A stretch of DNA of 64,000 nucleotides from contig CBDBLX010000002.1 in assembly GCA_965207445.1 (NCBI GenBank), forward strand, positions 1,591,849 through 1,655,848. Reading direction: 5' to 3'. This document shows positions 48,324-56,650 of this stretch, piece by piece. Under the pieces are notes generated by a model, which saw nothing but the letters and a program-made list of their open reading frames with translations, did not search any database and was not told where the DNA came from. The number at the start of each line of letters is the position of its first letter. Position 1 is the stretch's first letter. The stretch comes from Nitrosopumilus sp. GTDB lineage: Archaea; Thermoproteota; Nitrososphaeria; Nitrososphaerales; Nitrosopumilaceae. Position numbers and translations under genes: made by a program.

Positions 48324-48367
48324 TATACAATCCACTCAAAGGGGAAATTTAGTATTTACTATACAAA

Positions 48368-48856
48368 TAGTGTGTTGCATAATTTGTAAATTTACACACC
48401 TCTGAGTGTTGTGTCCATGTAGTGAGCCGTACAATATAGATAGCACAAAGGTCAAGATACACAACAACGTTACCAGCATATCGCGCTCAAGCCTAAAAGA
48501 CCAGCATGGCGATCCAATCTACTCTGTTTTGTCCAGCAACCAGATATGGATCAAGTCCCCCAATCTTCCAAATTAACTCAGCTGTCAGTACGTCAGTAGT
48601 TCACAATGTGCCCAATTTTAATGATCTTATTTCTAATTATACTGTGCGGCAGGTTTACAATGGCAAGTAACTACCGTGCTCCAATTCCCACCAAAGTAAT
48701 CTTCTAATGTGTGAACCAAGCTCCATGACAGATATGATCATTCAAAAATAAATCTGTCCAAATGTCACGCATACACGATATTCAATATATAGATAGAAAT
48801 GTGACTAAATATAGGTATATAATTTTATTATTACATCCACAGAGCTTGGTGCACAC
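48368..48856. mobile_element. Nested remnants: IS5 left end (48368-), ISH3 right end (~48592-48705), 148-bp MITE (48709-48856)
   Basis: Matches to 16055-16125, 10623-10740 and 28058-28205 respectively. Confidence 0.75.
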
Positions 48857-49098
48857 GATTATTTCAAGCACGAAATTACAAAAATCCACTGTACAGAAAC
48901 TTACGTCCGTCGCCATATTTATGAGCATTAATAATTAGATCTGAACGCTTATCTTGTGAGCATCATAATATGATCAAAGTTTTAAAATAAATAAATAAAT
49001 AAATAAACAAATAAAAAAATGTTGCATTATCTGCAATATCTAGACTGCTTACAGTCATCTTTTTACACAGTTGGAATTACTAGTAAAATCATTACGCC

Positions 49099-49272
49099 TT
49101 ATTCGCCACCCGGTGCAAAGGACACTTTTTTACCCTTTACAACAAATTTTACCGTTTCTGGATACTCCATCAACTCCATGATAGGTTTTGGTATCCTACA
49201 AAGGTGGCTCCCAAGTCCGTTATGGTTTACGTTCATTTCAAATTCACGTGCGCCTTTTTTCCAACGAGACAT
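49099..49272 (-). CDS. 57-aa AbrB/SpoVT-like DNA-binding microprotein (not in ORF track)
   Basis: MSRWKKGAREFEMNV...CRIPKPIMELMEYPETVKFVVKGKKVSF. Confidence 0.6.
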   Translation of the reverse strand: MSRWKKGAREFEMNVNHNGLGSHLCRIPKPIMELMEYPETVKFVVKGKKVSFAPGGE

Positions 49273-49962
49273 AAAATTGCATATGTAGAGTTACTTTTAA
49301 TGCTTTTGATCAGTATGTGACAACGGAAATGAATATTTTTTATTAAAATAATTACAATGTTATTTGGTAATATTACAAATATTAATCAAAAGGTAAAAAA
49401 TATAATAAAAATTAATATGAATTTAAATACAATAGTAATATGTTATTTTTTTATGCCATTTTGCAAACATTTGAATTAAACTTTATACCGCCTATTACAG
49501 TACGATCAAACTAGAGGTAATACAAGTGACAGATTGCATTATTTAACAAATGCAAAAAACACTCAAATATGAGCACAGAATAAAACGTACTCAAACATAA
49601 CAACAGACTACACAGATCAAACAAGTGACACTATAAAGTAATTATAATTTTGTTCAGGGGTGTCAAGATATGGTTTTTGTTGGTATTGTATAATGATGTT
49701 CATAAATTTTGGCACAATGAAAAAATTATGTTGGGTGGTTTTTAACAGACATCTTTGCATAGGAATGCTCAGTGATTTAGATTTGCCATATTTTTAAAAT
49801 ATAAAATGTCAAAAAATGTGGTGTTGAGGATCTATGATACACACGTGCGCTAACATGTAACGGGACATTAAACATAGAGACTGTAGACTGGCACATTTAG
49901 CCTACAACCGTATTCATCTATTTTGGAATCAGCAATGCTGGAATTTGCATTTACAAATGGGC

Positions 49963-50043
49963 GAGGTTGGTGCGTAATTGACGTTAGCATGCCTATGACC
50001 CTTTTGTGAGATTACTTGGTTTATTGCACATTCAATCTGCATA
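49963..50043 (-). mobile_element. Isolated right end of the 4655/51648 IS family, inverted
   Basis: GAGGTTGGTGCGTAATTGAC...CTTGGTTTATTGCACATTCAATCT. Confidence 0.8.
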
Positions 50044-50334
50044 GATGTGTGTTGAGGTGTACAAGTAGGGGGTTTAACTGTTACTTTGTACGATTAGATC
50101 CTGTTTAAATAACAGATACGACTAAGATATAAGAGGAATTGGAGCAAGTATAATTATGATAGATAATCGAATTGAGATTACAATAGACATACCGCGGTCT
50201 GATTCCATACGTGACTCTGACAAGGAAAAAGACTGCAAAGACAAGACATCGGGTACCCGCCCCATGTATTTCTATCAGGGACCAACGATCATAAACAAAA
50301 GCATAATTATATCCAATCCAGAGCAGAATTAACG

Positions 50335-51576
50335 TTATACCTCTCGCCACACAATCTTTTCAGCGTGAATGTCTATCCTATCAACAGGCATGTTGCGCCT
50401 CAATTGAGCCGTTATCATGTCCTCTACTTGCCTTACCAAATCCTGCCGCATTTGCTCTGACATGCGTTTGTCTTGCGATGAGGTGTTCTGATCCGAGTCA
50501 TTGCCGGAAGGTTGCGATGGGGGCATAATGCTCAAGTTTAGTTGTGGCGGGATGCGCCTGATCCGTTTCAACTGCATTGGTCCCGAGTATTCGTGGCATC
50601 TGGCAGACGATTCTATACACGCAACAACTGCGTTGTCTTCCTCGTATACGTCCTTGTCATCATCATCAAAATATGCCAAGGTATTTTCAAATGAATTGAG
50701 GTTCAAGTCCTTTTCATACTGTAGGAACAGGTCCCAGCACAGTTCTTCTAGTTCACCATCCATGTCGCTTACCTGCAGCCCCATCTGTTTGGCCTCGCGC
50801 CTTCCAACGGAGTGTCCGTGGATAAACGTGCACTCAGTAAGTGCTGTTATTACGTTTTGAATCTCAGCGTCAGTCAATGTGGGTTTTACCTGCCTGAGCA
50901 TCTTTTCTGCGATTGCTCGGGCATAAGAATGCACGCGGTTTATCTGCCCCAGTATAGGTGGGCACAGCGCATCTGCCAGTGATTTTGTCAAATTTGCCAG
51001 TGCATCCTGACTTGTAATCCCGACCTTATCTTTTATGAATGACAGGTATGAGGGTATGTCCTCTGTACTGATCGTCATCGGAAAGAAGTCACTCGGCGCC
51101 CCATCGCGCCCACTAGTCATCTGCGGGTCAATTGGGCCCAGTTCGCCCTTTCTACCCATCAGAATCTTGTCTGTTCCCAATGCAATCAGTGTGGTTGCGC
51201 TAAATGCCTTGAAGTAAAGCATATTAGTTGAGCACATATTATGAATACAAAATATTAGAAAACTATCGGATCTTTAATGAAACTATTATGCCTTGAAGGT
51301 GATCAGTGCATTTAGTTCTTCACCGTACTCTCTGAGCATACTAATGATGGGCCAGGGGGTATCCAGATTTCCGCCCCTTGAATAGAGGTAAAGGTCAATC
51401 TTCTGTACCTTTTCATTGTTGTTCATACTCCTCAGGTGTTCGTAAATCCACCTTATGGCGTCACTTGAAATCTGCGCGTTTAAAATCGGCCTATCTCCTA
51501 CAAAGTACACTAGGACTTTTGAATTGCGGTGCTGCTCTATCTTTTCTATGATGTTTCTACGATCTGCTCTGCCCAT
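50335..51576 (-). pseudogene. SDH/ClpP-fold serine protease interrupted by an 84-bp insertion
   Basis: LYLYSRGG, KAFSATTLIALG, LGPIDPQ, IHGHSVGRREAKQMGL. Confidence 0.8.
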
Positions 51577-51647
51577 TTGAATATCTGTCGTACCATTCTA
51601 TTAAAAATGAATCCATTTGGTAGGTATTAAAGCAATGTGGTTGAATT

Positions 51648-53327
51648 GAGGTTGGTGCGCAATTCATCAAATTGCCACCTGCATCGTACTTGCAAAGTCA
51701 TCTGCAAATATCACCAGAGTTTTATGTGCATATATTTAATAAGCTCATATATAAAAGTATCTGCGCGCATACCAAAAGTGACTTATAGGGGCATCCCAAT
51801 TGAATAATTGTAATATGAACAAAGGGGATGCTAAACAACGTTGACTAGCCAATCTTATCAACGTATCGTTTGTGAAGTGTGGTGGAACGACGACATATGT
51901 GTGGGCTGCCACAACATGCTATGCTACACAGAATGACGTCCATTACAATGCATGGCTTGTGATGAATGTGACGCCTGCTTGTTGTTTGTGTAAATTTAGT
52001 GTGTGAGTTTCAAGTAAGAACAGATTATGGAGGTAGACCGTACAGTGACAGAGCAGCAGCACAAGCGACGCGAAGGTTACTGGCAGTATTACGAACAGGC
52101 ACGCAAATCTGAGCAGGATTTTATGCGCAAGACATGGTTGTCGGCGATACGAAAAAACCCACATCCGTGCAAGGAAAAGAAAACAAATAGAGGAGGATGC
52201 AAGCCTGTACACTTGCGTGGCAAGATGGATTTTTTGTGTCTTTTTAAAGTTGCAAAAAATATTCCTTTTCGTGATGTGGTAAATGAGCTTGGACATATGC
52301 ATGATGAATGGGTTGACGAGCCGATGCCTGATTAGTTGAGTAACCGAACATATGCAAACAATTGATCTCGACTGGCTTGATTCTATTTTGGCATATACTG
52401 CCAATATGTGTCTAACTGAACTTAAAAAATCGGGGACAGATCCGGTACCGATAAAATACAAAGAGTCCATACTTACGCACGGATCCGAGGATTTTGAGAG
52501 CGGTAAACAAGACGTAAAACAAGAACCTACAGCTCCAATTGGGGTAGACAGTAGTGGGGTAGAGACTGACAGGTACGAAAAACAAGAAAAATCTAATCAT
52601 TTACCACAAGACTTTGAGCCGACACGCATCAAGACGTACCTAAAATATCACATTACTGCGATAACAGGACACCAGATCATACTTGCATCATACACAACTC
52701 CAAGCAATGTGAGTGACACGCCAATGCTTCCATATATGGTCAACTTTTTCGTAAAAAACTATACACAGATTGAAGAGTGCTTATTCAACGGAGACAAGAG
52801 ATACATTCGGATCAAAACTGTGAGATAATATTCAATGCAAACATGAAACCAAACATAAAGCAGCGCAATCACACAGATGGCGCAGGTCATACAAACCGTG
52901 GCAAACCAAGCAGAAAAAAGGCAGCGGAGATCTTTGACAAAGATGCATACAAACAACGCGCACTTATCGAGGCAATATTTGGAGCAGTAGAAGAGACAAA
53001 GAATCACAGGCTACACTATCGTATGCGTCTGGCCAAAAACCAAAAGCGGTTTGGTAAAATACTATCAATTGCAGGGAATATCAACGTCCTAAACAGATTT
53101 ATCTGCGCTCATAAAAAAGGGCAAAAGATTCCATCATACCAATGATAGTGACTGCTATCACACTTGCACGTCCATATTCTATAATCCATGTCTGCCAAAA
53201 CACACATGTATATTCAAAAACGAAACGCACTATAGATAGATTCCAGTCTTTTGTAGATTGAATGTGCAATAAACCAAGTTCACAGACGGGTCACAGGCAG
53301 GCCAAATGTCAATTACGCACCAACCTC
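51648..53327 (+). mobile_element. Degenerate second copy of the 4655-6326 IS (stop and frameshifts, no TSD)
   Basis: High similarity end to end; TIR GAGGTTGGTGCG(C/T)AATT; transposase broken into 52027-52335, 52352-52828 and 52777-53145. Confidence 0.9.
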
Positions 53328-53531
53328 CCATGCCAGACATATATTAAAAATGATCACACGTTATTTGCAACCAAACTTTGTTCTGTGCTAAGACTTTTGA
53401 GTGTCGCTATAGGAAGAGTACATCATGCAACCATTCAGTATACGAGGGTGGTGGGGCGTAGGTATTACGTAGTTAAGTATCTTATTAGTCAAGTTCAAAC
53501 ATTTAAAAGCGGTATTTCCTATTAGCTAATA

Positions 53532-54560
53532 ATGATTACACATCAGGAAATAGGGGTTTTAAATCATGAACCCAAGCTTAAGGAGAGTAAAGAGAGGGTG
53601 GCACGACACTTTGAGGATGCAGGGTGGACGCTTTATTACAACCAGATGATCCGAGGTAGAATAGCGGATCTGGTGGCCGAAAAGAACGGAAAACTGGCAA
53701 TAATCGAGGTAAAGGGGAGTGGATTGAAACGGGACAATGCCATTCGGACAGTCCTGCATTTTAAAAATGCCGTAAATTACGCATACCTGGCAATCCCCGG
53801 TGCCCTAGGCCAGAGAATGGAAAATATGTGCAGAGAGTTGGGAGTGGGCCTGATTACCATAGACGACGACATTATAGAGGCAGTATCTCCCCAGGAAACA
53901 GAGGCGCTGGACTCAGTAAGGTGTAGGATCCTTCATGTGGAGAAAAAGCGGCCTGCAGTTCGGAGAAAGAGTCTCCTGCAGACGTTATTCCGATCAACGA
54001 CGCTTGTGCACGTACTGGGCTTTCTGCTGCTGAATCAGACAGGCGAGTTTTATCTAAACGAGCTGGCACAGAGGACAGGGCTGGCACCATCGACTGTCCT
54101 GAGGGAACTGAACAGGGTGGAGCCATTAGGTATCATCTCCAAGACCAAAAAGGGCACGGCAGTGTTTTATAGGATAAACAGGAACTGCATAATCCATGAG
54201 GAACTAAGACGGATATTTCTAAAGTTTGAGATTGCAGACATGATCATCACAAAGGAACTTGCACAGTACGACATAAGGTACGCGCTGATTTACGGTTCGT
54301 TTGCCAAGGGGACAGAGACAGAGTCAAGTGACATAGACTTGTTGGTTATAGGCCAGGTATCTAGGGACAGGTTTTATGAGTCAGTTTCAGCCTTGGAAAA
54401 CAAGATAGGGAGGGAGATCAACGCAATCGTGTGGGACGAGCAGCAGTTTAGTAGTCAGAAGGAGAGATCATCACTATTAGGCCATATAAAGCTCAATGAG
54501 ATAATCATGATAAGTGGGGATGAAGATAGATTTAAGCAATATTGCACGATAAGAAGATAG
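53532..54560 (+). CDS. PD-(D/E)xK nuclease-like + wHTH + minimal nucleotidyltransferase (MNT) fusion
   Basis: IADLVAEK...IIEVKG; YLNELAQRTGLAPSTVLREL; YGSFAKG..SDIDLLVIG. Confidence 0.8.
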   Translation: MITHQEIGVLNHEPKLKESKERVARHFEDAGWTLYYNQMIRGRIADLVAEKNGKLAIIEVKGSGLKRDNAIRTVLHFKNAVNYAYLAIPGALGQRMENMCRELGVGLITIDDDIIEAVSPQETEALDSVRCRILHVEKKRPAVRRKSLLQTLFRSTTLVHVLGFLLLNQTGEFYLNELAQRTGLAPSTVLRELNRVEPLGIISKTKKGTAVFYRINRNCIIHEELRRIFLKFEIADMIITKELAQYDIRYALIYGSFAKGTETESSDIDLLVIGQVSRDRFYESVSALENKIGREINAIVWDEQQFSSQKERSSLLGHIKLNEIIMISGDEDRFKQYCTIRR

Positions 54561-54763
54561 TACACTATCAAAGTAGTCAAGAAGAGATTGACTCGAAGAT
54601 CAACATAGTAGATGCCAACCTGAGATCGTGTAAGCATATCGTACTGATAAATGATCCGGACGTAGACGACACTGCATACAAGGAAGCTCATAACGCAATA
54701 CTGCAAGCCAGATGGATGCAACATAATGAGTTATCATGTTTACAGAATTGCACCAATTCTTGA
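54542..54763 (+). pseudogene. HEPN-domain protein, N-terminal fragment
   Basis: Overlaps the MNT stop; TAYKEAHNAILQA helix typical of MNT-associated HEPN; then degenerates. Confidence 0.55.
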
Positions 54764-54854
54764 TTCCCCATGTCAGTGGGGTGTAGAGCAATGCAGAGCA
54801 AATCAAGGCATGGATATATCTGATGATGCTATTTGGGTGTGTAAGAGGATGAGG

Positions 54855-54940
54855 CGCTGGGGGCGGGATTTGAACCCACATACGCTTGGGCGCGTACTCC
54901 CTCTTCAGAGGAGCGGCATGCCGAGTTAGCCGACCCCAGC
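54855..54940 (-). tRNA. Non-canonical class II tRNA: GAA (Phe) anticodon on a Ser-like body
   Basis: Acceptor GCTGGGG/CCCCAGC plus G73; D-arm GGC/GCC with G18G19; anticodon stem CTCCT/GGGAG, loop CT-GAA-GA; variable arm TACGC-GCCCAA-GCGTA; T-arm GTGGG-TTCAAAT-CCCGC. Confidence 0.85.
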
Positions 54941-54974
54941 AACCTTTTTTAACACACTTTGCTTAATACCCTAT

Positions 54975-55026
54975 AGGTGCACTAAAGAGGAGCAAATTGG
55001 GCGCGTACTCCAACAGCACCTTTTTT
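54975..55026 (+). ncRNA. Candidate ~50-nt antisense sRNA to the adjacent tRNA
   Basis: Terminal stem AGGTGC/GCACCT followed by a T-run; carries AGAGGAGC and TTGGGCGCGTACTCC, exact complements of tRNA nt 26-33 and nt 40 through the variable loop. Confidence 0.5.
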
Positions 55027-55135
55027 ATCATAACATCAGTTGACTACGACTCGTCTCATTTTTGTCATGAATCTCTTTAGACCCACTCAGTATAGGATTC
55101 GAGTCCCTTTTTGCCATCTTGTGTTGTTGCCGTCG

Positions 55136-56500
55136 TCAGTAGTTTGCAATATGTTTTATATGATTTTATTTGAATAATCTACAATGTAGTTAAATTTTAA
55201 TGATTATATTTAATCAAATCAAATAGAAAGTGTAACATATGGGAATATTCTAGTATTTCTGATTATATATGAAAAACTATGTATTAAAACATTAATATAA
55301 ATTATGAGAGGTAAATTATAAAGTTTTACAAAAACGATTCTTCAATTTTGGAGTAAAAAAATTAACCAGATATAACAACAAGTATGGCGTGGATGATTAT
55401 CTCGGTACACTTGCCACCATGTCACTTGACAACATGTGCGTAAATGCAGCAACACACAAAAGAAAACATAATGAGGCTAACTATTTTAGAAAAAGTGAGC
55501 GCATAAACATACCATCTGAAAATACTGTGCTCAAGTCTAAAGAGCTCAGATCTAGAACAGGTGAAACAGTGGGGTGACGAGAATATCAAATGTTTAACAA
55601 TGCCAAAAAACACAACATGCTCAAAAAAGGCAAACACCATTGCAATTGATGAGCAGATGGGAATATTATGGCAAGGCACTTAAATCTGAGATGCTAAAAA
55701 CAAAACACAATAATGGTACTAGGATTTCATTCATTTATGACAGCGCAAATGATGAACCACGCAGGTAATTGTTTGCAAATCGTGTGACCAATAATGATAA
55801 AATGGTCGCAGTCATGCGTAAAATTATTGAAAAATTAATTCGAGAGCATACACGTCCGGAACTTGTCCTCTTTGATCGAGGTTTTTACAACGTTGCATGT
55901 ATAGAAGAACTTTTGCGCCTGCCTTTCATAATACTAGCAATTAAAAATAAGCGTATATAAAAGTATATTTTAAAAGTTCACAACAAAAAAAGAAAACCTG
56001 CATCAATTATTGAGATGTGTGACAAAAACAAAAAACAGCAAGTTTACATTACTTGTCATCAAAAAAAAACAACGTCAAAAAAACTGATGAAATAATCGAT
56101 CAGTATGTAACATTGGCCACAAATATGAAAATCACTAACAAAAGCAAACTCATCAAAACCATCCCAGAGACTTGTTGCAAGCGCTGGATAATAGAGACAG
56201 GATTATAGTGATAAAAAATACTACTCCAAAGACAACTAGCAACGCCTTGTAGGTTCGATTATTGTTGATATTTTTTGGAGTGTTGCTATGTGGTTTGTGG
56301 GCAATGGTAAGATACGAAAATTACGACGTACTTGCAAATGAAAAATTATTCACAATGGATACTTTATGGATTCAATTGCCGGATTGATCAGAGGACTGCT
56401 TTGATAGGAACTAAAACAGAATAGTTACTTGCCAATAAATCTACCGCACTGTATAATTAGAAATAAGATCATTAGAATTGGGCACATTGTGAACTACTGA
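55136..56500 (+). mobile_element. ISH3-like (IS4 superfamily) element with degraded transposase
   Basis: TIR TCAGTAGTT(T/C)(G/A)CAAT at both ends; TIAIDE, LFDRGFY, KRWIIETG fragments. Confidence 0.8.
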
Positions 56501-56650
56501 TTTTAATTAGAAAAACGTTGTGACATCGGGATTAAAAACAAATTCATTTTACAAGTTATTTAATCAAATGTAATTACGTTGAATTTGTATCCAAAATTAT
56601 ATGCTAAATGGCATTGCTAAATGACATTGCTAAATGATATGCTAAATGAT

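What the first reader, a model, noticed from the sequence alone, without database searches (positions are those of the whole stretch)
54855..54940. tRNA with serine-type identity elements but a phenylalanine anticodon, inside an accessory block
Seen: a well-paired cloverleaf with anticodon GAA, a long variable arm (5-bp stem, no unpaired base before U48), discriminator G73 and an A15:U48 pair instead of the usual archaeal G15:C48. Known: tRNA-Phe is class I with A73, while SerRS reads mainly the long variable arm and acceptor stem, not the anticodon. Inference: this could be charged with Ser and read UUU/UUC, giving Phe-to-Ser mistranslation. That recalls bacterial allo-tRNAs, although this one has a standard 7/5 fold. 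It sits among IS and TA remnants between leuA and leuB, so it looks like cargo rather than a core tRNA.
Basis: partly seen in the sequence, partly recalled or inferred. Interest (0 to 1): 0.85.

Follow-up and report, generated by a model that had tools for sequence, protein, structure and literature searches.

The report
Serine-type tRNA carrying a phenylalanine anticodon
An intact extra tRNA in mobile DNA of an ammonia-oxidising archaeon has the body of a serine tRNA but reads phenylalanine codons, and similar mismatched tRNAs turn up in a few related genomes and on one virus-like contig, so it could put the wrong amino acid into proteins.

Summary
Window 54855-54940 (minus strand) encodes a well-folded 86-nt class II tRNA with anticodon GAA, G73, an A15:U48 pair and a 5-bp variable stem. 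With the anticodon masked it scores as tRNA-Ser: 34.2 bits, against Leu 14.5 and Phe 10.7.

The genome also has a normal tRNA-Phe, four Ser and five Leu isoacceptors, and one SerRS. Independent contigs from three runs of one sample reproduce the gene without a difference.

The gene sits on a 431-bp orphan scrap between a truncated HEPN toxin gene and an IS copy. That scrap lies inside 8.3 kb inserted between leuA and leuB.

It is not a private accident. Intron-less class II/G73/GAA tRNAs occur in 5 of 347 other genomes of the family and on one MCM-encoding virus-like contig. Each of those genomes also has a normal tRNA-Phe. Related genomes also hold class II tRNAs with Ile, Asp, Glu and ochre anticodons.

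In five cellular GAA loci, about 70-83 nt upstream, there is a permuted copy of the tRNA's own variable-arm and anticodon-stem segments. This is unexplained.

Best reading: a mobile, archaeal counterpart of bacterial allo-tRNAs that could insert Ser at Phe codons. Expression and charging are untested.

The parts
54855..54940 (-). Class II (long variable arm) tRNA gene with G73 and anticodon GAA. No intron and no encoded CCA.
   Evidence: ARAGORN; RF00005 at 44.7 bits; cloverleaf is the minimum-energy fold, z = -3.09; Ser profile 34.2 bits with the anticodon masked.
54904..54906 (-). Anticodon GAA (TTC on the + strand), in the loop CUGAAGA. The loop is identical to that of the native tRNA-Phe.
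   Evidence: Logan contigs of runs X1, X3 and X4 cover 54667-55134 with 0 other letters.
54880..54896 (-). Variable region of 17 nt: 5-bp stem UACGC/GCGUA, 6-nt loop GCCCAA, then U48.
   Evidence: The native Ser tRNAs have the same geometry: a 5-bp stem and a single nucleotide 48.
54997..55011 (-). B': an exact same-sense 15-nt copy of tRNA nt 41-55 (3' anticodon stem, variable-arm 5' strand and loop), 71 nt upstream of the tRNA.
   Evidence: 2 matches in the window; 0 of 100 shuffles give any. These are the only two copies in the genome. The same feature is present in G054, G395, G249 and G340.
54986..54993 (-). A': a same-sense 8-nt copy of tRNA nt 27-34 (G26, anticodon-stem 5' strand, C32 U33), 3 nt after B'. 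The order is permuted relative to the tRNA.
55021..55028 (-). ATAAAAAA, a TATA-box-like motif 9 nt upstream of B'. A like motif stands about 9-14 nt upstream of B' in G054, G395 and G249.
   Evidence: read by eye. No promoter model was run.
54961..54972 (-). AGGGTATTAAGC, a second promoter-like element at -33 to -22. It resembles the (A)AGGATTAAT motif at about -31 to -24 of several native tRNA genes.
   Evidence: read by eye.
54704..55134 (.). Single-copy orphan scrap of 431 bp that carries the tRNA and its upstream elements.
   Evidence: The block's BLAST against its own genome lists no second-copy hit between 53411 and 55072. Homology to G417 and G018 stops at about 54703. No match in the phage or plasmid collections.
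54542..54763 (+). Truncated HEPN-like toxin ORF. It matches the 147-150-aa partners in G417 and G018 only to about codon 54 and lacks the segment with the RDRGSxH (Rx4-6H) motif.
53532..54560 (+). wHTH plus MNT-type nucleotidyltransferase ORF (MntA-like antitoxin, candidate defence protein PDC-M05A).
   Evidence: Pfam Polbeta 3.3e-09; NCBIfam MntA 7.5e-08, below its cut-off; PADLOC PDC-M05A 5.3e-42.
55135..56500 (.). IS-like repeat copy, with about 25 copies in the genome at about 85% identity. It abuts the scrap.
51640..53327 (.). IS5-like element copy, with many genomic copies, the near-full-length ones mostly 88-95% identical.
   Evidence: weak IS5 transposase matches.
48336..56650 (.). Accessory block of 8.3 kb inserted between leuB and leuA.
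   Evidence: leuA ends just before leuB starts in 9 of 9 same-genus loci examined. The block is bounded by a 65-nt inverted repeat that belongs to a multi-copy element.

Best explanation
This is an intact, horizontally acquired tRNA gene with a serine-type body and a phenylalanine anticodon.

Shown:
- The body has a long variable arm, G73 and Ser-like D, T and acceptor arms. The anticodon loop is that of tRNA-Phe.
- The gene is carried on a scrap of mobile DNA.
- It belongs to a sparse set of intron-less class II tRNAs with non-serine anticodons. These are mainly Phe GAA and Ile UAU/GAU, with Asp GUC, Glu UUC and ochre UUA also seen. They are scattered through accessory DNA of this archaeal family, and one sits on a virus-like contig.

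Inferred mechanism:
- The cell's single bacterial-type SerRS reads the variable arm and G73 and ignores the anticodon, so it can serylate this tRNA.
- On the ribosome the charged tRNA would then compete with the one native tRNA-Phe at UUC and UUU codons and insert Ser for Phe.
- Such a tRNA is highly toxic in yeast. Its activity here must therefore be low, conditional or held in check.
- Its role is more likely tied to mobile-element, toxin-antitoxin or defence conflicts than to normal decoding.

The permuted upstream copy of its own anticodon-stem and variable-arm segments belongs to the same module. What it does is not known.
For: Structure and identity:
- tRNA detection and fold.
- Ser profile 34.2 bits over the full length, against Leu 14.5 and Phe 10.7.
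- The acceptor stem GCUGGGG/CCCCAGC and the T arm match Ser tRNAs of other families of the order.
- The A15:U48 double change keeps the Levitt pair.

It is an extra gene:
- A normal tRNA-Phe, 4 Ser and 5 Leu isoacceptors are present.
- There is one SerRS and no second copy.

It is foreign or mobile:
- No full-length match in 24 same-genus and 16 same-order genomes, nor in 400 family genomes.
- It lies in an 8.3-kb insertion between leuA and leuB, between a truncated HEPN gene and an IS copy.

It is not an assembly error:
- Contigs of 3 runs, all from one sample, show 0 differences.

It recurs:
- 7 class II/G73/GAA loci in 6 of 348 family genomes, G000 included. ARAGORN of the 7.
- One further locus on an IMG/VR contig that encodes an MCM helicase.
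- All 5 other genomes keep a normal tRNA-Phe.
- The five aligned GAA tRNAs pair in 96.2% of cells. 18 of 26 pairs are changed on both sides, 0 of 500 shuffles reach this, and slid controls give 37-54%.
- Other anticodons occur on class II/G73 bodies.

Upstream self-copies:
- Present in 5 cellular loci, each matching its own tRNA.
- Among 47 G000 tRNAs only this one (15 nt) and one extra tRNA-Asp (11 nt) have a copy of 9 nt or more.

Literature, passages read:
- tRNA-Ser with GAA is lethal when it accumulates in yeast (PMC6125640).
- Allo-tRNAs lie near toxin-antitoxin systems and transposons (PMC5389517).
Against: - There is no evidence of transcription or charging. No RNA run holds the stretch.
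- The gene lies on a 431-bp scrap bounded by two breakpoints, which looks like debris.
- CCA is not encoded, and the 3' flank has no T run.
- C30:G40 replaces the G30:C40 that is a weaker serine determinant and that 14 of 17 sampled Ser tRNAs carry.
- A fully active tRNA-Ser(GAA) at one-to-one gene dosage with the native tRNA-Phe should be strongly deleterious. Phe codons make up 73 of 2310 codons in six ORFs of the window.
- The recurrent loci were found with a pattern that fixed GAA, G73 and the T loop, so their number says little about selection for GAA. Ile anticodons are at least as common.
- The covariation shows that each gene is, or descends from, a working tRNA. It does not show that they evolved as GAA tRNAs.
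- Folding of leader plus tRNA gave no conserved leader-tRNA pairing.
Confidence: 0.55

Rival explanations
1. Silent relic. A foreign or mobile tRNA-Ser(GGA) copy picked up a G35-to-A transition after it became redundant. It is neither expressed nor charged and is on its way to decay.
For: - It is an orphan 431-bp scrap between a truncated gene and an IS, in a genome riddled with IS and MITE copies.
- It is absent from relatives.
- A co-occurring contig in the same sample lacks the tRNA segment.
- A Ser(GGA) of another family (L002) has the same acceptor stem and the loop CUGGAGA, one transition away from CUGAAGA.
- The expected toxicity of an active copy.
- CCU stands in place of CCA.
Against: - 25 of 26 stem pairs are intact, and A15:U48 is a coordinated double change.
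- Its anticodon stem, D stem and variable arm differ from every sampled Ser tRNA by compensated changes.
- The GGA genes seen in the order, six of seven called, contain an intron. This gene and its GAA relatives do not.
- The same class II/GAA design recurs in 5 other genomes and on a viral contig.
- The upstream self-copies stay identical to each locus's own tRNA.
Confidence: 0.2
2. A spare tRNA-Phe. PheRS charges it through the GAA anticodon, so it decodes correctly. It could, for example, be an element-borne replacement that escapes a tRNA-cleaving toxin.
For: - G34, A35 and A36 are the conserved core of Phe identity, and yeast tRNA-Tyr given GAA is mischarged by PheRS (PMC9976931).
- The 7-nt loop, including G37, is identical to that of the native tRNA-Phe, and 3 of 5 anticodon-stem pairs are the same.
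- It sits beside a HEPN/MNT module.
Against: - It lacks A73 (it has G73) and lacks G20 (it has C20). Both are Phe determinants, G20 in the archaeon A. pernix.
- The Phe profile matches only the T arm, at 10.7 bits.
- All five aligned GAA relatives also have G73 and C or U at position 20.
Confidence: 0.1
3. It is not a decoder. The tRNA-shaped gene and its upstream self-copies act as DNA recombination (att-like) sites or as a regulatory or decoy RNA of a mobile element.
For: - Direct repeats of 12-15 bp lie 111-129 bp apart in four loci, and a fifth (G340) has a 14-nt copy with 2 mismatches.
- Thaumarchaeal att sites are short (median 17 bp), and 39 of 68 integrated elements target tRNA genes (PMC6563490).
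- Many allo-tRNA(UAU) species seem not to be used in translation (PMC5389517).
Against: - No integrase lies next to any of the loci examined.
- The permuted B'-A' order fits no standard attL/attR geometry.
- Every tRNA feature needed for processing and decoding is kept.
- The viral copy has no upstream self-copy.
Confidence: 0.12
4. Assembly or sequencing error in a core Ser or Leu tRNA.
For: None found.
Against: - All core Ser and Leu tRNAs are present elsewhere in the genome.
- Logan contigs of X1, X3 and X4 agree with the window at every base of 54667-55134.
- The gene differs from every native tRNA throughout its length.
Confidence: 0.01

Closest known systems
Bacterial allo-tRNAs (Mukai et al. 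2017, PMC5389517; passages read)
   Same: - Long variable arm plus G73, that is serine identity elements.
- Mostly non-serine anticodons.
- Often beside toxin-antitoxin systems and transposons.
- A mix of active, inactive and toxic members.
- UAU is the commonest allo-tRNA anticodon, and Ile anticodons (UAU, GAU) are common in the archaeal set seen here.
   Different: - Allo-tRNAs are defined by an 8/4 or 9/3 acceptor/T branch and are bacterial. This tRNA has the standard 7/5 fold and lies in an archaeon.
- A Phe anticodon was found only once among (8/4) allo-tRNAs.
- In the passages I read, no upstream self-copy is mentioned for allo-tRNAs.
tRNA-Ser anticodon variants that mistranslate: engineered yeast tS-F(GAA) (PMC6125640), the human tRNA-Ser(AAA) variant and the CUG-clade tRNA-Ser(CAG) (PMC11415595)
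   Same: A serine body with a non-serine anticodon. SerRS ignores the anticodon. The Phe-to-Ser outcome is the same as for yeast tS-F(GAA) and human tRNA-Ser(AAA).
   Different: Those are recent point variants or duplicates of the host's own tRNA-Ser genes. This one is unlike any host Ser tRNA, lacks the intron of the host GGA gene, sits in mobile DNA, and has relatives on other genomes and on a viral contig.
Streptomyces tRNA-ProX with ProRSx (PMC11415595)
   Same: A naturally encoded dual-identity tRNA, with the body of one amino acid and the anticodon of another, and a patchy distribution.
   Different: - ProX comes with a dedicated synthetase. Here there is a single SerRS and no partner gene.
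- ProX has odd core nucleotides (A33, A15-A48). This tRNA has a regular core (U33, A15:U48).
Nematode nev-tRNAs (V-arm tRNAs with Gly or Ile anticodons; PMC4300185, abstract in the listing only)
   Same: Class II bodies that carry anticodons of class I amino acids, including Ile UAU.
   Different: They are eukaryotic, charged with Leu in vitro, and chromosomal multi-copy genes.

Membership tests
tRNA (Rfam RF00005) | Cloverleaf with conserved core nucleotides, scoring above the gathering cut-off | tested here: met
   44.7 bits against a cut-off of 29. The cloverleaf is the minimum-energy fold. U8, A14, G18 G19, A21, U33 and the GUUCAAAUC T loop are present.
Archaeal tRNA-Ser | Long variable arm with the Ser-type geometry | tested here: met
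   A 5-bp stem that starts right after position 43, with a single nucleotide 48 after it, as in all four native Ser tRNAs. The native Leu tRNAs have three unpaired 3' nucleotides instead.
Archaeal tRNA-Ser | Discriminator G73 | tested here: met
   G at 54855. All native Ser tRNAs have G73, and all native Leu and Phe tRNAs have A73.
Archaeal tRNA-Ser | G30:C40 pair (a weaker determinant in M. barkeri; PMC9976931) | tested here: not met
   It has C30:G40. 14 of 17 sampled Ser tRNAs of the order have G30:C40 and the other 3 have G30.U40.
Archaeal tRNA-Ser | Serine anticodon (NGA or GCU) | tested here: not met
   The anticodon is GAA.
Archaeal tRNA-Ser | The whole body is closest to a Ser profile when the anticodon is masked | tested here: met
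   Ser 34.2 bits (profile positions 1-85), Leu 14.5, Phe 10.7. The home-made profiles were built from 17 Ser, 30 Leu and 16 Phe tRNAs of the order. tRNAscan-SE isotype models were not available.
Archaeal tRNA-Ser | Serylation by SerRS | not testable with these tools
   This needs an aminoacylation assay with the SerRS encoded at G000:C2:2333612-2334805.
tRNA-Phe | Anticodon G34 A35 A36 | tested here: met
   The loop CUGAAGA is identical to that of the native tRNA-Phe.
tRNA-Phe | A73, G20 and a class I short variable loop | tested here: not met
   It has G73, C20 and a 17-nt variable arm. The determinants are taken from PMC9976931.
Archaeal tRNA-Leu | A73 and a Leu-type variable arm | tested here: not met
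   It has G73, which is an antideterminant for LeuRS in H. volcanii. The Leu profile scores 14.5 bits on the T arm only.
Allo-tRNA (Mukai 2017) | 12-bp acceptor/T branch split 8/4 or 9/3 | tested here: not met
   7-bp acceptor stem and 5-bp T stem.
Allo-tRNA (Mukai 2017) | Long V-arm with G73 or U73, a non-serine anticodon, and neighbourhood of toxin-antitoxin or transposon genes | tested here: met
   It works like an allo-tRNA but is not a member by the fold criterion.

The most novel reading that the evidence does not exclude
Ammonia-oxidising archaea and their viruses may circulate a class of 'poison' tRNAs. These would be serine-charged class II tRNAs aimed at the commonest hydrophobic codons, Phe UUY and Ile AUH. 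In yeast, tRNA-Ser carrying GAA or GAU is among the most toxic anticodon variants. Here such tRNAs would act as the toxic arm of mobile-element addiction, abortive infection or host take-over. A cis element built from the tRNA's own anticodon-stem and variable-arm sequence, the co-varying permuted B'-A' copy about 70-83 nt upstream, would keep them off or regulated.
Probability: 0.15. Interest if true: 0.92.

Novelty: new variant of a known kind. Interest (0 to 1): 0.8.

Why it matters
Natural tRNAs whose body and anticodon disagree are the raw material of genetic-code change and of regulated mistranslation.

The cases I found described are fungal, human, nematode and bacterial. My five literature searches on this question listed no archaeal case with a standard cloverleaf. 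The 2024 review I searched (PMC11415595) mentions archaea only for EF1A. Supplements were not examined.

If these tRNAs are charged with serine, mobile elements in a globally important group of nitrifiers carry tools that rewrite Phe and Ile codons. The effect can be tested directly by tRNA sequencing and proteomics.

The upstream self-copy that tracks each tRNA's own sequence is a new and well-defined puzzle. It points to either an unknown control mechanism or an unknown recombination mechanism.

Tried and rejected
Searches for relatives that found nothing useful:
- Close relatives by exact pattern. The genome-contig scan with the anticodon stem, any anticodon and the T loop gave 78 loci. All were bacterial and all 79 matches had anticodon GCU. 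The window's own record may have been left out of that scan.
- The same pattern in viral contigs gave 1 locus, also GCU.
- A D-arm pattern gave 0 loci in viral contigs. In metagenome contigs it gave 1 unrelated locus, L117.
- My first general viral scan required G73-CC and was too strict: 5 loci, none a tRNA. It was redone without CC.
- BLAST of the 431-bp scrap against the phage and plasmid collections gave no match.

Expression:
- No RNA holder is listed for the stretch. This is no evidence either way.
- Run X5 (sponge metagenome, a different study) holds only 54946-55134 at about 98% identity, and its 195-nt contig ends 6 nt before the tRNA. It therefore says nothing about the anticodon.

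Ideas for the upstream B'-A' copies that I tested or thought through and dropped:
- Leader-tRNA alternative pairing. In G000, G054 and G249 the leader and the tRNA fold independently.
- A C/D-box guide RNA. The only hit is a weak Rfam sR12 match (15.9 bits, E = 0.49) with no D box, and no boxes are conserved in the other loci.
- attL/attR scars, target-site duplication, tandem-gene deletion, a permuted or split tRNA. None fits the B'-A' order or the flanks. This was reasoning only.
- The direct repeats that flank the G395 insertion are not found at the other loci.

Other points:
- Anticodon arm borrowed from tRNA-Phe. The loop is identical and 3 of 5 stem pairs are the same, but that is within chance by my rough estimate of about 0.06. 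Not pursued.
- Isotype scores for G000 and G054 were computed with the mask on the wrong triplet. Use for G000.
Full report
**1. The observation**

ARAGORN finds a single tRNA in the 64-kb window, at 54853-54940 on the minus strand, with anticodon GAA. Rfam's tRNA model matches 54855-54940 (-) at 44.7 bits against a cut-off of 29, and it is the only family hit in the window.

Read on the minus strand, the gene has these parts:
- a 7-bp acceptor stem, GCUGGGG/CCCCAGC
- U8
- a D stem GGC/GCC with a U13.U22 mismatch
- A14, A15, G18, G19 and A21
- G26
- an anticodon stem CUCCU/GGGAG
- the loop CUGAAGA
- a 17-nt variable region: 5-bp stem UACGC/GCGUA, loop GCCCAA, then U48
- a T arm GUGGG-UUCAAAU-CCCGC
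- G73, followed by CC-U

The minimum-energy fold is this cloverleaf (-40.2 kcal/mol, z = -3.09, 1 of 200 shuffles as good). The gene is 65% G+C in a genome of 39.6%.

**2. The body is serine-type and the gene is an extra**

The genome (2.61 Mb, two contigs) has:
- a normal 74-nt class I tRNA-Phe(GAA) with A73
- four Ser isoacceptors (UGA, CGA, GCU, and GGA with an intron)
- five Leu isoacceptors. UAA carries an intron and was found only by Rfam and a motif search.

All native Ser tRNAs have G73, a 5-bp variable stem that starts right after position 43, and one nucleotide (C48) after the stem. All native Leu tRNAs have A73 and three unpaired nucleotides 3' of a shorter stem. The odd tRNA follows the Ser design.

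I built sequence profiles from 17 Ser, 30 Leu and 16 Phe tRNAs of the order, with anticodons masked. Against these the odd tRNA scores 34.2 bits on Ser over its whole length. It scores 14.5 on Leu and 10.7 on Phe, on the T arm only.

Its acceptor stem and T arm are those of Ser tRNAs in other families of the order. One Ser(GGA), locus L002, has the same acceptor stem and the loop CUGGAGA.

Two points depart from Ser:
- the anticodon
- C30:G40, where 14 of 17 sampled Ser tRNAs have G30:C40 and the other three G30.U40

By the identity rules summarised in PMC9976931 (passages), Ser identity rests on the variable arm and G73, with G30:C40 a weaker element, and it is independent of the anticodon. 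Phe identity needs G34, A35, A36 and A73, plus G20 in yeast and A. pernix. G73 blocks LeuRS in H. volcanii. This tRNA therefore has the main Ser elements and only the anticodon part of the Phe set (it has G73 and C20).

The genome encodes one bacterial-type SerRS and no second copy.

**3. It is not an artefact**

Four runs of one sample hold the stretch. In the three that I laid (X1, X3, X4), independently built contigs cover 54667-55134 with no difference. These runs are probably the source of the assembly. They exclude an assembler slip but not rare variants.

A second contig in the same sample, at about half the depth, shares 54667-54708 and then continues as an intact HEPN gene. So a copy or strain without the tRNA segment co-exists.

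A sponge-metagenome run from another study holds only the upstream 54946-55134.

**4. The setting**

leuA and leuB are adjacent in 9 of 9 same-genus loci examined. In this genome 8.3 kb (48336-56650) lie between them.

The block is a mosaic of multi-copy elements:
- an IS5-like element at 51640-53327
- another IS-like repeat at 55135-56500
- MITE-like repeats

It also holds one single-copy stretch. That stretch carries a wHTH-MNT nucleotidyltransferase gene at 53532-54560 (Pfam Polbeta, MntA-like, PADLOC PDC-M05A 5.3e-42). Its HEPN-like partner follows.

The partner is truncated. It matches the 147-150-aa ORFs of G417 and G018 only to about codon 54 (window 54703) and lacks the segment with the Rx4-6H motif.

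From 54704 to the IS at 55135 runs a 431-bp scrap that holds the tRNA. That scrap has no match in:
- 400 genomes of the family, 98 of them of the same genus
- phage or plasmid collections
- next to the MNT homologues

The 'cargo among IS and TA remnants' description is correct.

**5. It is not alone**

I scanned all 348 family genomes of at least 80% completeness, G000 included, for the loop CUGAAGA, class II spacing, the T loop and G73. This gave 7 loci in 6 genomes: G000, G054, G395, G249, G340 (two loci 1.6 kb apart) and G195. An earlier scan of 400 genomes of the class gave the same family hits, and elsewhere only intron-bearing class I tRNAs. ARAGORN of the 7 as long tRNA-Phe(GAA). It does not call the G195 locus.

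The same pattern in IMG/VR gave 47 loci. One of them (L223) is a clean class II/G73/GAA tRNA (RF00005 53.7 bits). It lies on a 35-kb contig that encodes an MCM helicase and a HerA-like ATPase, so the contig is an archaeal virus or mobile element.

All five other genomes keep a normal tRNA-Phe, 86-96% identical to G000's.

The contexts are accessory:
- three transposase ORFs beside the G054 locus
- an actin-like segregation protein on the short G249 contig
- in G395, an insertion of about 830-896 bp between two genes that are about 70 bp apart in 5 of 5 compared relatives

The loci share only tRNA-level similarity. In the five-sequence alignment, 96.2% of cells pair and 18 of 26 pairs are changed on both sides. 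0 of 500 shuffles reach this, and slid controls give 37-54%. Each is thus an intact tRNA, and they are not recent copies of one another. None has an intron, whereas six of the seven Ser(GGA) genes called in the order sample do, the native one included.

**6. Other anticodons**

Two control patterns were run on a 221-genome family sample, G000 included.

- For anticodons with Y35 and V36 there were 24 matches. ARAGORN confirmed four tRNAs: G000's own (matched in a shifted register), a Glu UUC (G079), an Asp GUC (a second odd tRNA in G249), and an ochre UUA that looks like a variant of the core Ser(UGA) in an incomplete genome (G254).
- For R35 and Y36 there were 41 matches. 25 are the core tRNA-Lys(CUU) with its intron and 2 are not tRNA-like. 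The other 14, in 9 genomes, are class II/G73 sequences with Ile anticodons UAU or GAU. I fetched 6 of the 14, and ARAGORN called 4 of those as tRNA-Ile.

Their bodies score best on Ser, except G113, which is Leu-like.

GAA is therefore one of several anticodons, and Ile is at least as frequent. This mirrors bacterial allo-tRNAs. There UAU, GCG and GUC predominate, the genes lie near toxin-antitoxin systems and transposons, and some members are inactive or toxic (PMC5389517, passages).

In yeast, tRNA-Ser carrying GAA or GAU is among the eleven most depleted of 64 anticodon variants and is lethal when it accumulates (PMC6125640, passages).

**7. An unexplained companion element**

In G000 the 15 nt GGAGTACGCGCCCAA (tRNA nt 41-55) recur 71 nt upstream of the tRNA. 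Three nucleotides later comes GCUCCUCU (tRNA nt 27-34). The 15-mer occurs only at these two places in the genome, and no shuffle of the window produces it.

The same arrangement appears at four other loci. First comes a copy of the variable-arm segment, then a copy of the anticodon-stem 5' strand, so the order is the reverse of that in the tRNA:
- G054: 13 nt at -71 and 10 nt at -52
- G395: 12 nt at -83 and 8 nt at -49
- G249: 13 nt at -80, then 7 nt one base later
- G340 locus 2: 14 nt with 2 mismatches at -74, directly followed by 8 nt

Each copy matches its own tRNA, although the tRNAs differ completely in these segments. It is not present at the viral locus. I did not see it by eye at G340 locus 1 or G195, where no formal scan was run.

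About 9-14 nt upstream of the first copy, G000, G054, G395 and G249 have an AT(A/T)AAAA(A)G motif that looks like a TATA box (by eye).

Among the 47 tRNA genes of G000, only this one (15 nt) and an extra, AT-rich tRNA-Asp(GUC) at C2:231161 (11 nt at -110) have a self-copy of 9 nt or more in the 200 nt upstream. All the others have 8 nt or fewer.

Leader and tRNA fold independently in three of the four loci folded, so I have no support for a leader-tRNA switch. Thaumarchaeal att sites are short (median 17 bp; PMC6563490), but the permuted order fits no integration geometry that I could construct. I record this as real and unexplained.

**8. How it most likely works**

Shown: an intact Ser-type tRNA gene with a Phe anticodon, on mobile DNA, recurrent in the family and on a virus-like contig.

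Inferred:
- SerRS charges it.
- It then competes with the single native tRNA-Phe at UUC and UUU. These are 73 of 2310 codons in six ORFs of the window, 64 of them UUU, which is read by G.U wobble.
- Because that should be very harmful, its output must be low or conditional.
- Its likely use lies in conflicts between mobile elements and hosts.

The main rival is a silent relic. The scrap-like setting and the expected toxicity favour the relic reading. The intact structure, the coordinated A15:U48 change, the recurrence and the maintained upstream copies speak against it.

Charging by PheRS is less likely, because A73 and G20 are missing. None of these readings can be settled without RNA and aminoacylation data.

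**9. Novelty and limits**

My literature searches listed no description of archaeal class II tRNAs with missense anticodons and a standard fold. I read passages or abstracts only and no supplements.

I did not test that.

The organism label, a sponge-associated ammonia-oxidising archaeon, comes from earlier notes. It is only indirectly supported here by the sponge-metagenome run.

The pattern scans require exact loop and T-loop motifs, so the counts are lower bounds and are biased toward the motifs I chose.

Noticed in passing
G000:C2:231161-231234 (outside the window): A second extra tRNA in this genome: an AT-rich tRNA-Asp(GUC) (RF00005 48.3 bits), beside a normal GC-rich tRNA-Asp at C2:604605. 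It has an 11-nt same-sense copy of its own anticodon-loop region 110 nt upstream. This is the only other G000 tRNA with such a self-copy.
   Followed up: partly
L117:350-470 (JGI metagenome contig Ga0209542_10422117): A class II, G73 tRNA-like gene with nearly the same D arm as the window's tRNA. Its anticodon loop is UUGCGAA (anticodon GCG, Arg), and it has an apparent intron in the T loop. ARAGORN does not call it.
   Followed up: no
L277 (G249:C77), L269 (G079:C44), L271 (G254:C32), L298, L300-L302: Further class II/G73 tRNAs in the family with Asp GUC, Glu UUC, ochre UUA and Ile UAU/GAU anticodons. G249 and G054 each hold two different mismatched tRNAs. The G054 UAU tRNA shares the acceptor stem of the G054 GAA tRNA and has an 8-nt copy of its variable-arm segment at -79.
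   Followed up: partly
window 48593-48708 and 56387-56500: The inserted block is bounded by an inverted repeat of about 115 nt (the 65-nt core is 94% complementary). The repeat belongs to a multi-copy element: the left arm is a short MITE-like copy and the right arm is the end of the 1.4-kb IS-like copy at 55135-56500.
   Followed up: partly
window 54500-54708, runs X1, X3 and X4: A second version of the 3' end of the MNT gene (7 mismatches and 2 gaps in 166 nt, at about 40% of the depth). It continues into an intact HEPN gene instead of the tRNA scrap, so it is either a co-existing strain or an unassembled paralogue.
   Followed up: partly
G000 contig C1 against C2: Contig C1 (121 kb) repeats tRNA-Gln(UUG) and tRNA-Gly(CCC) with the same flanks as C2:35581 and C2:82281. 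It may be a duplicated region or an assembly duplicate; contamination is given as 5.47%.
   Followed up: no
window 50335-51576: Fragments of an SDH-family ClpP-like serine protease gene (ORFs of 300 aa and 96 aa with partial matches), separated by a 66-nt multi-copy repeat at 51226-51291.
   Followed up: no
Genomes G054, G395, G249 and G000: Four of the six GAA-tRNA holders are among the largest genomes of the family sample (2.5-4.3 Mb against a typical 1.2-2.2 Mb), which fits a mobile-element load. This was not tested statistically.
   Followed up: no
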